Shown here piece after piece: positions 7,475-20,700 of a stretch of 64,000 nucleotides of DNA. This DNA is from Octopus vulgaris (lineage: Eukaryota). Location of the stretch: NCBI GenBank assembly GCA_951406725.2, contig OX597816.1, positions 2,604,001 to 2,668,000 of the forward strand. The letters are read 5' to 3'. Made by a program: the position numbers. How positions within the stretch are numbered: the stretch's first letter is position 1; each line of letters opens with the position of its first letter.

Positions 7475-7886
7475 ATATAACATATGTGTGTATGTATGTA
7501 TATGTGTGGTGTGTGTGTATAAAGTTTCAAAGAAGAATGTGTGATGATCTTTTAGAAAACAAACCAAGTATTTGTCATTGAAATAACAGATGTATAGACA
7601 TCCCTGCTCATCTTTAGATAAGGATTTAATATCGATAAAATATTCAAGACAAAAAGGAAATCCTGGCCTTATTTAATCAACAAAAGAAATCTCAAATTTC
7701 TTGGAGAAAATAATTTTTTAATCATTTATTTATTTTTAACCAAAAAGTCAATCAATAATTGTCGAGATATGAATTATTTTCTCCTTTTTTCTCTGTTTTG
7801 TTTGTGTTTCCTCAAAGGTGAGTGTCACATTTTGTATTAGATTCAAAGCATTTTATATTTGACATAAATTCACCAGAAACTGAAGA

Positions 7887-7965
<79 letters not shown>

Positions 7966-8231
7966 TGTGGTTAAGGTTATGCTTGTAAATATTTGCTAAA
8001 AGAGAGCTGGTACTTGTTTTTGCATGCAGATAAACACATACATAAACACATGCATGTTTGTATACATGCATATATACACATTTGTCTTGTATTGTATTTT
8101 TACACATACACACATACAGTAATGAAATTACAGACGTGTTCTGTCATGATATGCACACCCACAAATACAAATTTATGCATACATACATACATACATACAT
8201 ACATACATACATACATACATACATACATACA

Positions 8232-8262
<31 letters not shown>

Positions 8263-17600: not shown

Positions 17601-17715
17601 TAAAATAAAATAGCAGTCAAGTACTGGGGTAGATGTAATTGATTAATCCCCTACCCTGAAAACTGTTGGTCTTACGCCAACATTTGAAACTACTACTACC
17701 ACCACCACCACCACC

Positions 17716-17750
<35 letters not shown>

Positions 17751-20700
17751 CGCTACTACCACCACCACTACCACCACTACCACCACCACCACCACCACCA
17801 CCACCACCACCACTACTACCACTACGACGATGATGATGACCACCACCACCACCATTACTGTTGCTACCGCTGCTACTGCTACTGCTGCTGCTGCTGTTGC
17901 TGCTACAAGGGCAGTCGATGGCAGAATCAGTAAAACACTGGAAAAAACTGCTTTATGGCATTTAATTATTCTGTTTTATGGTTGAAGTTCAAATGTCGTC
18001 TGAGTCAATTTTTGTCTTTTACCCTTCTGGGGTCAATCAAATTTGTCCATTGAAGAATTGAAATAAACCAACAAAACTTCTTTCACCAAATTTGTAGCCT
18101 TGAGCCAATGTTGGTACCTGTTGTTGCTGATGCTGTGATTATTATTATTATTATTATTAAGGTAGCAAGCTGGCAGACTCGTTAGCGTGCTGGACAAGAT
18201 GCTTAGCAGCATTTCAGCTGTCTTTATGTTCTGGGTTCAAATTCTGTACCAGTTGTGTACTGGGGTTGATGTAATCCACTCGCCCCTTCCTCCAAAATTC
18301 CTAGCCTTGGACCAAAACTAGAAACCATTATTATTGCCTCCACCTCAGTGAAGGTGGAGGTGTTGTTTTCAGTTGTGTCTGTTTGTCCATGGACAAGATA
18401 TCTCAAGAACCGCCAGATGGATTTGGACAAATCTTTCAGGGATGTTTGGCCTCATGACTGGCACGAACTAATTAGATTTTGGAATTGATCTGGTACTAGA
18501 CAAGGATTCTGGATTATTTATCCCGTTTCTTTACCTAATTTTTGAGAACGACCAGGTTCATTTTTATTATTCTCATTTGTGAGAGCAGTTGAGTTTATTT
18601 CAGAGATTCTCATTTCAAAAATCCTCTCTTACTAATCGTTGAGAGGACGTTGGTGTTGCTTTGGTGGAGTTTTCTGCTCTTTGAGTGCTCTTGCTATTAT
18701 TATTATTATTATTAAGACAGGGAGCTGGCAAAACTGTTAGCATGCTGGACAAAATACTTAACAGCATTTTTTTCTGCTCTTTGCATTCTGGGTTAAAATT
18801 TCACTAAGTTCTTCTTTGCTTTGCATCCTTTCAGTGTCAACAAAATTAATAGCAGTTAAGCACGGGGGTGGAGTGTCAGTGTAACCAACTTGTCTTCTCT
18901 CCTCCCAAACATTTTGGGCCTTGTGCCTGTAGTAGAAACTACTACTACTACTACTACTACTACTGCTCAAAACCTATAACGTGCTAATATAATGAGGAGG
19001 TATGTTATCCTGAGGCTTGATGAGAACAAGTCTCCTCAAACCTCGAGCATCTTTCTTAGAATTTATGCAGAATTCAGAATTGCACTTTTCTGCAGTTTGG
19101 CAATGCATGTCTTCCATCCCAGTATTCTTCAGCCTCTTAGATTGCAATTCGGATCTGGTGTTAAATGCACCAAATACCACAAGAACAATTTCCACTTTTC
19201 TCTTCCATAATCTTTTCCTCTTTGGCTAAGTCTTGGTATTTCTCAGTTTCTTTGGTATCCACTCTCTTATCAAAAGACTTTGCAAAACCCATGATTTTAC
19301 ACCGTTTTTCTCTTTTACTTCTGCTCTCTACAGTCATGTGAATTTTTTTTTTTTTGCTTTAATAATAATAATAATTATTATTATTATTTGTGTTTGTAAT
19401 CTCTAATATAGTTTCATTTGTTTCAGAGACTTCAGTGGAATGCTCAACCCATTTCTTTGCCACGTCCAAAAAAATTGGTCAGATTCCGAATACAGAAACA
19501 GAATTGATTCACCTGAAGAGGGTTTTAAACATTTTGGTTTTCGCACTGTGTGTTTTAAGTATCATTATAATTCTGAATTTCATTAATTGTGTCTTCAAGA
19601 AGTTCCGCAAAAAGAAAGCAAAAAAATCTTCAGAAATGGAAGAAGATACGTCAGACGATGTTGATGATACAGAGAAAGATGAGTTGGAGACAAACAAATT
19701 GCTTGATGAGGAAGTGAAACCTGCCTATAAACCTCACACCAGACCAAGTATTTTGTTAAATGGACAATTGTTGTTTGAAGGTGACACGCCATTTGCTAAA
19801 GTGACATACAAGTCTGATAAACCAGTGATTTCCTTTGTTGATAATACAACGGCCCTTCAAAACTGGGACCCTGGAGTCTCATGTTTTACTCTGGCCCCCA
19901 GTGAAAGTGATTCTAATGAAGAATACGTTGAAAAGAATACAGATTTGCTTGTCCCAGACAATGATTACTATGAAAGGGACCGTTCTGCATCATGTCCTGA
20001 GGTCCTCCAAAGCATTTTCTAAATCAAGTTTGAAGTGAGTGCATGCTTCTTTTGTAACCCTTTTGGCACCAACTGAACCCAAACCACTTTTGGTTTTCGT
20101 TTCAATGACACAAACTTCCTGTTTTTAAAGTACACCGAAATTTCATGTAATATTTCAAACACAAACATTATATGACAATTATTTTACAAAAAATATTCCT
20201 AGTTATCAAAATTTATTAAAACAAAGGCTGTGTATTTTAACAAAAGTATGCTAACAAAAGGGTTAAAACTATTTATTTAGGCATTATAAATACCTTATAG
20301 TGCTTACTGCCATCTTCCTATATTTTGGTTACCGATTTAGCATTTGGTACCATAAAATAAAAACACTCTTATTATCTGTAGTTATAAGCGGAAATTTGCA
20401 GAGTATAAAAGCAGCATGTGAATGTGTGTGTGTGTGTGTGTGGTTGTTCTGTTAATAATGACAATGAAGAAGCTAAACATTTGAAAAAGATAACCGTTTC
20501 CAGAGAGTATAGTAGTTGCATGTTTTGTACAAAGCTAAATGGTGTGTACAGGTGACCCTTGGAGTACACGACTGATTAGGTCCATAGGTCAAGTGTAAAT
20601 CAAAAACCATGTCAAAACAAGGGAGATAATATTTCTAATGTTAATAAGAAAAACACAGCTGAAACAGTTATTTATTCAAACAGATATAACACAACTATAT

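What the first reader, a model, noticed from the sequence alone, without database searches (positions are those of the whole stretch)
7769..20022. Hidden orphan single-Ig receptor with a signalling-motif tail
Seen: a 49-nt signal-peptide exon absent from the ORF track, a symmetric phase 1-1 Ig-sized exon (LNC, IWW, FSC plus three more Cys; N-glycosylation sequons NNT and NLT) and a TM/tail exon splice into one 322-aa frame, with a likely VEG|Q cleavage. The tail carries an acidic stretch, a dileucine sorting signal (ETNKLL = [DE]xxxLL), several Tyr (EEYV, NDYYE), RDRSASCP and a C-terminal SIF. Established: RxRxxS is the Akt consensus, RSxSxP is the mode-1 14-3-3 site, and S-x-hydrophobic is a class I PDZ ligand. 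Inference: a lineage-restricted immune, adhesion or neural recognition receptor lying between housekeeping genes. I do not recognise it as any named family.
Basis: partly seen in the sequence, partly recalled or inferred. Interest (0 to 1): 0.8.

Follow-up and report, generated by a model that had tools for sequence, protein, structure and literature searches.

The report
Cephalopod-only single Ig-like membrane protein
This is a real three-exon octopus gene for a membrane protein with one antibody-like outer domain and a strongly conserved inner tail; it is found only in octopuses, squid and cuttlefish, is already listed in databases as "uncharacterized", and its function is still unknown.

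Summary
Exons 2 and 3 are a known gene. They match "uncharacterized protein LOC115209176 isoform X2" of Octopus sinensis (99%), O. bimaculoides LOC106867350 (89-90%) and an Argonauta hians model, plus unnamed 322/328-aa proteins that carry signal peptides. The 49-nt signal-peptide exon is missing from both Octopus models I saw. It is the only one of 191 candidate first exons with both a strong donor (9/9) and a hydrophobic core. No relative outside coleoid cephalopods turned up in four sequence searches, and no Pfam model reaches its cutoff. Exon 2 folds as a seven-strand Ig-like sandwich (pLDDT 79). Most likely this is a type I surface receptor or adhesion protein whose tail docks a conserved cytosolic partner; that function is inferred. 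Moderate-to-low interest.

The parts
7769..7817 (+). Exon 1. It starts at the ATG and encodes 16 codons plus the first base of a split codon (MNYFLLFSLFCLCFLK). This is the proposed signal peptide. Donor is AAG|GTGAGT.
   Evidence: It is the only one of 191 candidates with both a donor match of at least 7/9 and a hydrophobic core. The ATG is the first in its open frame, 7622-7840. Splicing to exon 2 is inferred, not shown.
7818..15949 (+). Intron 1 (8.1 kb). It is repeat-rich and holds (TG)41 at 7888-7969 and a frame-broken Mos1/mariner-type transposase on the minus strand at 13918-15010.
   Evidence: (HTH_48 E 1.1e-10; Transposase_1 E 3.9e-6).
15950..16273 (+). Exon 2 (324 nt, phase 1-1). It carries the end of the signal peptide with the proposed VEG|Q cleavage, and an Ig-like domain with five invariant Cys and a WW pair.
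   Evidence: Cephalopod homologues at E 2.3e-38 to 1.8e-19. AF2 gives seven strands, pLDDT 79.4, pTM 0.73. Foldseek matches Ig-like sandwiches. An in-frame alternative acceptor sits at 15956.
19427..20022 (+). Exon 3. It encodes a stalk with the sixth conserved Cys, the TM helix, the cytoplasmic tail and the TAA stop.
   Evidence: It is 99% identical to O. sinensis LOC115209176 isoform X2.
19522..19596 (+). Transmembrane segment VLNILVFALCVLSIIIILNFINCVF, followed by KKFRKKKAKK (positive-inside).
   Evidence: AF2 predicts a helix over exon-3 residues 22-67, with block pLDDT of 92-93 over residues 31-50.
19741..19893 (+). Conserved cytoplasmic block RPSILLNGQLLFEGDTPFAKVTYKSDKPVISFVDNTTALQNWDPGVSCFTL (51 aa). 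This is the best-conserved part of the protein.
   Evidence: Identity to the window is 51/51 (O. bimaculoides), 45/51 (Argonauta), 40/51 and 37/51 (squid/cuttlefish-type). The Ig exon scores about 41% and the TM segment 3/25 against the same two squid/cuttlefish-type proteins. Invariant columns are listed. AF2 gives low confidence here, with short strands at residues 108-136.
19945..19998 (+). Distal conserved motifs LLVPDNDYYERDRSASCP. L, P, N-D-x-Y and S-A-S-C-P are invariant.
   Evidence: NDxY and SASCP occur in 8 of 8 sequences, RSxSxP in 6 of 8, and RxRxxS in 4 of 8.
20215..20361 (+). Polyadenylation-like hexamers: ATTAAA at 20215 and AATAAA at 20356, which are 190-335 nt after the stop.
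   Evidence: These are pattern matches only.

Best explanation
The locus is a genuine three-exon protein-coding gene of an Octopus very close to O. sinensis. It encodes a type I single-pass membrane glycoprotein of about 320-322 aa.

The parts, in order, are:
- a cleaved signal peptide, from exon 1 and the first residues of exon 2;
- one immunoglobulin-like beta-sandwich ectodomain with six conserved cysteines (exon 2 plus the stalk of exon 3);
- a TM helix;
- a cytoplasmic tail of about 140 residues that is probably disordered on its own.

The family is found only in coleoid cephalopods. The ectodomain and TM segment diverge quickly. A 51-residue tail block and two distal motifs (NDxY and SASCP) are nearly invariant between octopods and squid/cuttlefish-type sequences.

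Proposed mechanism (inferred): the Ig-like domain binds an extracellular or cell-surface ligand. The conserved tail block then docks a conserved cytosolic partner, probably folding on binding. The (R/H)SASCP serines would add phospho-regulation. That makes it a cell-surface recognition or adhesion receptor.

What is shown: gene structure for exons 2-3, conservation, fold class and the TM helix. What is inferred: use of exon 1, the cleavage site, disulfides, topology, and all binding and signalling.
For: - Gene structure: splice sites and frame are as described. Annotated Octopus proteins span the exon 2-3 junction without a gap.
- Full-length relatives: two 322/328-aa relatives begin with hydrophobic signal peptides (MNTFW.../MNIFW...) that run straight into the conserved QI(Q/R)I start of the domain.
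- The database start is probably truncated: the internal Met used in the two Octopus models is replaced by T or L in all 5 non-Octopus sequences that cover that position. Argonauta conserves residues upstream of it.
- Exon 1 is unique among 191 candidates.
- Fold: the AF2 model of exon 2 has seven strands, pLDDT 79.4 and pTM 0.73. Foldseek against PDB gave 6 matches at E<=0.001, and the listed hits reach TM-score (query) 0.68, all to Ig-like sandwiches: nanobodies, MHC-II Ig domains, nectin-2 D1, superoxide reductase and GH3 FnIII-like domains. Atlas feature neighbours are mostly Ig clusters at 0.90-0.93.
- Ig sequence pattern: C28, W44/W45 and C88 are invariant in 9 of 9 aligned rows. This is the classic B-strand Cys / C-strand Trp / F-strand Cys pattern; the pattern itself is recalled knowledge.
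- Membrane topology: the TM helix is confident and is followed by KKFRKKKAKK.
- Tail conservation: 46 invariant columns in the tail.
Against: - No Pfam Ig model is significant. The best scores were Ig_3 at E 0.057 and I-set at E 0.076, each in 1 of 7 members.
- Foldseek hits are generic Ig-like folds with 6-17% identity. They include non-IgSF proteins, and the top ranks are GH3 glycosidase domains.
- The tail model has pLDDT below 50 over residues 65-197, so there is no structural hint of a partner.
- The exon-1 peptide's similarity to the squid/cuttlefish-type N-termini ranks only 3rd of 191. Homology therefore does not single it out.
- No expression, ligand or partner data were available.
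- All homologue evidence rests on about ten sequences.
Confidence: 0.6

Rival explanations
1. It is an auxiliary (beta-type) subunit of an ion channel or multi-subunit receptor. It would be analogous to vertebrate sodium-channel beta subunits or MPZ-like single-Ig proteins, rather than an autonomous receptor.
For: It has the same single Ig-like plus TM plus tail architecture. The only PDB sequence hit of the family profile is sodium channel subunit beta-4, covering the F-G strand through the TM segment, but at E 0.18 it is not significant.
Against: The hit is at chance level. The TM segment is the least conserved part, with 3 of 25 residues identical between octopus and the squid/cuttlefish-type proteins, which argues against a conserved intramembrane contact. 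The long, strongly conserved cytoplasmic block has no counterpart in the PDB chain that matched.
Confidence: 0.15
2. It is a cycling or sorting membrane protein. On this reading the tail is mainly a set of trafficking signals for clathrin adaptors and PTB-type adaptors: an acidic cluster, a dileucine motif and an NxxY motif.
For: The tail has an acidic cluster after the TM segment. A [DE]xxxL[LI] match occurs in 7 of 8 sequences. N-D-x-Y is invariant in 8 of 8.
Against: The dileucine match sits at different positions in Octopus (ETNKLL) and in the squid/cuttlefish-type proteins (xEKLL before VP), and is absent in Argonauta. The motif is NDxY, not the canonical NPxY. None of this explains the 51-residue invariant block. 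Assigning these motifs to adaptors rests on recalled consensus patterns only.
Confidence: 0.15
3. The first exon is wrong. Either the true 5' coding exon lies elsewhere, or translation starts at the internal Met as in the database models.
For: Both Octopus database models I saw start at MITVKE. Exon-1 similarity to the squid/cuttlefish-type signal peptides is not discriminating, ranking 3rd of 191. I had no transcript data.
Against: Starting at the internal Met leaves a 130-residue, Cys-rich ectodomain without a signal peptide. That Met is not conserved outside Octopus. Coding conservation extends upstream of it. Only one candidate exon combines a 9/9 donor with a hydrophobic core. Only the 15.9 kb upstream inside the window was scanned.
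Confidence: 0.15
4. It is not a functional gene, but a chance open frame or a decaying pseudogene.
For: The window is repeat-rich, and the introns are full of transposon and microsatellite sequence.
Against: Both large exons are intact. They are conserved as open frames in Octopus sinensis, O. bimaculoides, Argonauta hians, Acanthosepion pharaonis and several unnamed short contigs, at E down to 3.5e-124. The pattern of invariant Cys, Trp and tail residues is typical of purifying selection.
Confidence: 0.02

Closest known systems
RefSeq models 'uncharacterized protein LOC115209176 isoform X2' (Octopus sinensis), 'LOC106867350' (O. bimaculoides) and 'LOC115209176, partial' (Argonauta hians)
   Same: This is the same gene. 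Identity over exons 2 and 3 is 99% for O. sinensis, 89-90% for O. bimaculoides and 59-65% for Argonauta, and the exon 2-3 junction is the same.
   Different: The two Octopus models (296 aa) start at an internal Met of exon 2. They lack the signal-peptide exon and the first 9 complete codons of exon 2. Isoform X1 was not seen in any call. None of these models carries a function or a domain annotation.
Immunoglobulin-superfamily single-Ig type I membrane proteins (for example nectin D1-like and V/I-set domains)
   Same: Shared features are a seven-strand beta-sandwich, the Cys(B)...Trp(C)...Cys(F) pattern, a single phase 1-1 domain exon, and a signal peptide plus TM plus tail layout.
   Different: No Ig-clan Pfam model reaches significance. 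Structural matches are at generic fold level, with TM-score at most 0.68 and 6-17% identity. There are three extra conserved Cys. The tail has no known relative.
Voltage-gated sodium channel beta subunits (beta-4, PDB 7dtd_B)
   Same: The architecture is one Ig domain, one TM segment and a basic juxtamembrane stretch. The alignment runs from the F-G strand through the TM segment.
   Different: E 0.18 is not significant. The tail block is absent from the matched chain, and the TM segment is not conserved within the cephalopod family.

Membership tests
Immunoglobulin superfamily (Ig-like domain) | Beta-sandwich of 7-9 antiparallel strands | tested here: met
   AF2 predicts seven strands at pLDDT 79.4 and pTM 0.73; 3 of the 5 models scored 77-79 and 2 scored 43-44. 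Foldseek PDB matches are Ig-like sandwiches at E 2e-4 to 5e-3 and TM-score (query) 0.41-0.68.
Immunoglobulin superfamily (Ig-like domain) | Conserved B-strand Cys, C-strand Trp and F-strand Cys (core disulfide, 55-75 residues apart) | tested here: met
   C28, W44/W45 and C88 of the exon-2 peptide are invariant in 9 of 9 rows, with a spacing of 60 residues. They fall in predicted strands 23-32, 40-50 and 84-92. The disulfide itself cannot be tested here. The defining pattern is recalled knowledge.
Immunoglobulin superfamily (Ig-like domain) | Significant sequence match to an Ig-clan profile (V-set, I-set, C1/C2-set, ig, Ig_3) | tested here: not met
   Pfam found no Ig model at E<=10 for the window's exon 2. 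Among 7 family members the best scores were Ig_3 at E 0.057 and I-set at E 0.076, each in 1 member and below cutoff. Atlas feature neighbours are Ig clusters at 0.90-0.93 but share only 148-162 features, which makes them a lead only.
Type I single-pass membrane protein | N-terminal cleavable signal peptide | tested here: inconclusive
   The exon-1 peptide is hydrophobic, and VEG|Q satisfies the small-residue rule at positions -1 and -3 (read by eye; the rule is recalled). The full-length relatives P0007, P0008 and P0010 have equivalent N-termini. No signal-peptide predictor or transcript data were available.
Type I single-pass membrane protein | One hydrophobic TM helix with basic residues on the cytoplasmic side | tested here: met
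   AF2 predicts a helix over exon-3 residues 22-67, with pLDDT 92-93 over residues 31-50. A 25-residue hydrophobic stretch is followed by KKFRKKKAKK.
Sodium channel beta / MPZ-like single-Ig proteins | Significant sequence similarity of the Ig domain and TM segment | tested here: not met
   The family profile against PDB sequences gave one hit, beta-4, at E 0.18.
Class I PDZ ligand | C-terminal [S/T]-x-hydrophobic, conserved among orthologues | tested here: not met
   SIF occurs in the window, P0003 and P0004 only, all Octopus. The other complete C-termini are NIF, RIS, YTT and CKP, so the motif is in 3 of 7 complete C-termini. Binding cannot be tested here.
14-3-3 mode-1 site / Akt site | R-S-x-S-x-P and R-x-R-x-x-S conserved among orthologues | tested here: inconclusive
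RSxSxP occurs in 6 of 8 sequences; His replaces Arg in O. bimaculoides and Argonauta. RxRxxS occurs in 4 of 8. SASCP is invariant in 8 of 8. Phosphorylation and binding cannot be tested here.

The most novel reading that the evidence does not exclude
The family is an invention of coleoid cephalopods. On this reading a fast-evolving Ig-like recognition domain became coupled to a new cytoplasmic signalling module of about 50 residues (PSILLNG...NWDPGVSCFTL), which has no detectable relative in any other animal. That would define a previously undescribed receptor-to-cytosol pathway specific to octopus, squid and cuttlefish, possibly in their nervous or immune systems.
Probability: 0.25. Interest if true: 0.55.

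Novelty: new variant of a known kind. Interest (0 to 1): 0.3.

Why it matters
Coleoid cephalopods are studied for lineage-specific genes that might underlie their unusual nervous systems and immunity. This family would be a candidate for such studies: a single-copy surface protein (one copy in this window) that is conserved across the octopod-decapodiform split and carries an unknown, near-invariant cytoplasmic block.

There is also a practical point. The public Octopus models appear to be truncated at the N-terminus. Adding the 49-nt exon turns a puzzling protein with no signal peptide into an ordinary type I membrane protein. That matters for anyone predicting the octopus surface proteome.

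Beyond that, an uncharacterized lineage-restricted Ig-like membrane protein is a common sort of finding.

Tried and rejected
- Pfam on exon 2, on exon 3 and on 7 family members found nothing above cutoff. The weak hits (Cadherin_3, DUF3169, FAM176, DUF4834 and others) sit on the TM or acidic stretch, or are at chance level.
- PDB sequence search with the whole-family profile gave only Nav beta-4 at E 0.18. The tail-only profile gave only a viral matrix protein at E 0.46. Both were rejected as chance.
- The atlas search with the tail (residues 85-197) gave no usable hit.
- A tail-only profile search among longer proteins recovered only the six family members already known.
- The AF2 model of exon 3 gave a confident TM helix, but the tail had pLDDT below 50, so I ran no fold search on it.
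- Complex prediction on two copies of the exon-2 domain (a test for homophilic binding) returned no verdict: score 0.00 against a mark of 0.32, and the alignment was not used. This says nothing either way.
- Comparing the exon-1 peptide with the squid/cuttlefish-type N-termini ranked it 3rd of 191, which does not discriminate.
- tblastn of both exon peptides against the window found no paralogous exons; the best other hit was E 0.32.
- The listing of cluster members, meant to show the other members of the O. sinensis cluster (including any isoform X1), was unavailable.
- A six-frame Pfam scan of the flank failed because the translation contained stops. I replaced it with single open frames.
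- Literature: the two locus IDs gave 0 papers. 'cephalopod-specific' + immunoglobulin + transmembrane + octopus gave 0 papers. A looser search gave 264 papers, 15 of them listed, and none of those 15 concerned this gene judging by title and abstract alone. I read no paper text.
- The joined 322-aa model was never built, searched or folded. All work was done exon by exon or with database proteins.
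Full report
**Observation**

- Exon 1 (7769-7817) starts at an ATG, which is the first Met of an open frame running 7622-7840. It encodes MNYFLLFSLFCLCFLK plus one base and ends at a perfect donor, AAG|GTGAGT.
- Exon 2 (15950-16273) follows a long pyrimidine tract and CAG, is 324 nt long (phase 1-1), and ends AAG|GTAAAA.
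- Exon 3 (19427-20022) follows TTTCAG and runs to TAA.

Read by eye, the split codons are GTT (Val) and GAG (Glu), so the frame is 16+1+107+1+197 = 322 codons.

Everything below was done exon by exon (P0001 = exon 2, P0002 = exon 3) or with proteins returned by the databases.

**Is it more than chance?**

Yes for exons 2 and 3.
- The exon-3 peptide matches [quoted passage not shown] at E 3.5e-124 (99% identity) and "LOC106867350 [Octopus bimaculoides]" at 89%. It also matches a partial Argonauta hians model (59%) and unnamed proteins of 322 and 328 aa (43-45%).
- The exon-2 peptide was scored by phmmer against 1.84 billion representatives. It gave 6 hits at E<=0.001. Four belong to the family: Argonauta, a protein named as Acanthosepion pharaonis, and two unnamed. 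The other two are repetitive, low-complexity proteins that I dismissed after reading one of them.
- tblastn of six family proteins against the window puts them on exactly two blocks, exon 2 and exon 3. In both Octopus proteins, residues 98|99 are contiguous across the junction.
- The truncated or read-through models P0010, P0011 and P0014 lose similarity at or within a few residues of the exon 2-3 boundary.

**Exon 1**

This is the only part that is new relative to the public Octopus models I saw. Both are 296 aa and begin at the internal Met of MITVKE.

Evidence for exon 1:
- The full-length squid/cuttlefish-type relatives start with 17-residue hydrophobic N-termini (MNTFW.../MNIFW...) that lead straight into the conserved QI(Q/R)I.
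- The internal Met is T or L in all five non-Octopus sequences that cover that position. The Argonauta model conserves residues upstream of it.
- I examined 191 ATG-started, phase-1, GT-ended candidates in the 15.9 kb upstream of exon 2.
- Without a signal peptide, a 130-residue Cys-rich domain would have to cross the membrane on its own. This last point is inference.

Evidence against, or neutral:
- The exon-1 peptide's similarity to the squid/cuttlefish-type N-termini ranks only 3rd of 191.
- An in-frame alternative acceptor 6 nt downstream (AG at 15954-55) would remove two residues. The length of the Argonauta partial model fits that shorter version about as well.
- I had no transcript data.

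I put the exon-1 assignment at about 0.8.

**The protein: ectodomain**

AF2 on exon 2, with a nine-row alignment, gives a seven-strand all-beta model with mean pLDDT 79.4 and pTM 0.73. Three of the five models scored 77-79 and two scored 43-44.

Foldseek against PDB gives 6 matches at E<=0.001 and many at about 1e-3. All are immunoglobulin-like sandwiches:
- GH3 glycosidase FnIII-like domains;
- superoxide reductases;
- nanobodies;
- MHC class II Ig domains;
- nectin-2 D1.

TM-scores (query) are 0.41-0.68 and identities are 6-17%. This is agreement at the level of fold, not at the level of family.

C28, W44/W45 and C88 of the exon-2 peptide are invariant in 9 of 9 rows. They lie in predicted strands B, C and F, which is the classic Ig pattern (recalled). 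C40, C92 and C101 are also invariant in 9 of 9 rows. A stalk Cys in exon 3 (ECS) is kept in the 6 rows that still align there and, shifted by one alignment gap, in P0011. Three disulfides are therefore plausible, including C40-C92 between the adjacent C and F strands; that pairing is inference.

Against Ig-superfamily membership, no Ig-clan Pfam model is significant. The atlas neighbours are Ig clusters at 0.90-0.93 but with low shared-feature counts, so they are a lead only. The NNT and NLT sequons exist only in octopods.

**The protein: TM segment and tail**

AF2 on exon 3 gives a confident helix, with pLDDT 92-93 over residues 31-50. It covers VLNILVFALCVLSIIIILNFINCVF, which is followed by KKFRKKKAKK. 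The remaining 130 residues have pLDDT below 50, with only short strands at residues 108-136.

Conservation runs the other way. The table gives identity of each window region to the two squid/cuttlefish-type proteins, P0007 and P0008.

| Region | P0007 | P0008 |
|---|---|---|
| Ig exon | about 41% | about 41% |
| Stalk | 9/29 | 10/29 |
| TM segment | 3/25 | 3/25 |
| Acidic linker | 14/48 | 13/48 |
| Block RPSILLNG...SCFTL | 40/51 | 37/51 |
| Distal part | 19/35 | 18/35 |

For the block alone, identity is 45/51 to Argonauta and 51/51 to O. bimaculoides. Forty-six tail columns are invariant in 7 of 7 rows, including TPFAKV, ALQNWDPGVSCFTL, N-D-x-Y and SASCP.

- C-terminal S-x-hydrophobic is in 3 of 7 complete C-termini, all Octopus.
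- ETNKLL/ETNKLI is only in the four Octopus-like sequences. The squid/cuttlefish-type proteins have a different [DE]xxxLL just before VP, and Argonauta has none.
- The Tyr of EEYV is missing in the 3 squid/cuttlefish-type sequences and in P0005.
- RxRxxS is in 4 of 8.
- RSxSxP is in 6 of 8.

**Relatives outside cephalopods**

I found none. This rests on:
- the single-sequence search;
- the 1.84-billion-representative search;
- the whole-family profile search;
- the tail-only profile search among longer proteins.

The two profile searches scored only the 8000 candidates that shared the most words with the query, so absence is moderately strong evidence, not absolute. One atlas neighbour of exon 2 is an unnamed cluster of mostly molluscan proteins at 0.91, which I could not follow up. 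PDB sequence searches gave only chance-level hits: Nav beta-4 at E 0.18 and a viral matrix protein at E 0.46.

**Context**

- The first coding exon of SF3A2 lies on the minus strand at about 276-404 (PDB SF3A2, E 6.5e-17). It is divergent from the gene and about 7.4 kb upstream.
- A thiolase gene occupies the minus strand from 29.7 to 45.3 kb (Thiolase_N and Thiolase_C). It is convergent with the gene.
- PPIL4 exons lie on the plus strand at about 49.96 and 59.6 kb.

Intron 1 holds a frame-broken Mos1-type transposase. There are no paralogous exons in the window. The window contains no N and nothing that I took for human.

**Interpretation**

Most likely this is a type I surface glycoprotein whose fast-evolving Ig-like domain recognises a ligand. 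Its near-invariant, intrinsically disordered tail block would dock a conserved cytosolic partner, and the SASCP serines are a candidate phospho-switch. All of this is inferred from architecture and conservation.

The rivals are an auxiliary subunit of a channel or receptor, a trafficking receptor, and a wrong first exon. They are listed with their tests in the rival section. The homodimer prediction returned no verdict and is not used.

**Novelty and score**

The gene is already in public annotation as an uncharacterized protein. I found no paper naming it: 0 papers for the locus IDs, 0 for a four-term search, and nothing relevant among the 15 listed of 264 in a looser search (titles and abstracts only). 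Supplementary tables that might list it were closed.

The architecture is a familiar kind. What is not described anywhere I could search is the tail block, together with the coleoid-only distribution. I rate it a new variant of a known kind, interest 0.3.

**Left unchecked**

- Isoform X1 of LOC115209176 (one search was unavailable).
- Any transcript evidence.
- Orthologous DNA for dN/dS.
- The metagenome and viral contig collections, which were closed.
- The genome-contig collection, which holds only bacteria and archaea and was not used.

Noticed in passing
window 159-410 (- strand): This is the first coding exon of splicing factor 3A subunit 2 (SF3A2). Residues 3-45 of the frame match residues 1-43 of the PDB SF3A2 chains at E 6.5e-17. 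The gene runs off the left end of the window and is divergent from the Ig-like gene.
   Followed up: partly
window 29682-45328 (- strand): A multi-exon thiolase gene (acetyl-CoA acetyltransferase-like). Pfam confirmed four of the exon frames as Thiolase_N or Thiolase_C (E 2.7e-20 to 7.6e-6). I recognised four more by eye, at 31101-31346, 33488-33679, 35128-35328 and 37171-37326.
   Followed up: partly
window 49811-50113 and 59586-59858 (+ strand): Two exons of peptidyl-prolyl isomerase-like 4 (PPIL4). They match PDB chain 7qtt_V residues 1-29 (E 8.7e-5) and residues 67-108 (E 1.7e-15).
   Followed up: partly
window 13918-15010 (- strand), inside intron 1: A decayed Mos1/mariner-type transposase split over at least four frames. 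HTH_48 scores E 1.1e-10 at 14711-15010, and the Transposase_1 DDE part scores E 3.9e-6 at 14364-14825.
   Followed up: partly
window 16319-16989: A 32-bp minisatellite of 21 copies with 95% matches. It starts only 46 nt after the exon-2 donor. (TG)41 at 7888-7969 likewise sits 71 nt after the exon-1 donor. Any effect of either repeat on splicing is unknown.
   Followed up: no
window 39707-40330: A 27-bp tandem array of 23 copies with 94% matches, inside a thiolase intron. It stays open in one frame as a 235-aa ORF of FPSKGHLIC repeats (39654-40361, + strand). It is probably non-coding.
   Followed up: no
window 5565-5924, 12926-13157, 22615-22827, 32028-32363, 36512-36859, 56113-57073, 58093-58746, 60602-61824, 63033-63644: A dispersed repeat recurs on both strands. 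Its translation contains FLQLDALPNANHS-like and YSWMPFL-like strings. It looks like a SINE or other abundant octopus repeat (classification recalled, not tested). A reverse-transcriptase-like tail (RRLRWYGHVARM) at 58694-59113 (- strand) had no Pfam hit at E<=0.001.
   Followed up: no
window 17698-17854 and 22168-22339: Long trinucleotide microsatellites: (ACC)52 in intron 2 and (AAC)57 about 2 kb downstream of the gene.
   Followed up: no
window 15954-15956: A second AG lies 6 nt downstream of the proposed exon-2 acceptor and keeps the reading frame, so it would drop Val-Leu. Both acceptors give a viable signal peptide. The Argonauta partial model's N-terminus fits the shorter form in length.
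   Followed up: partly
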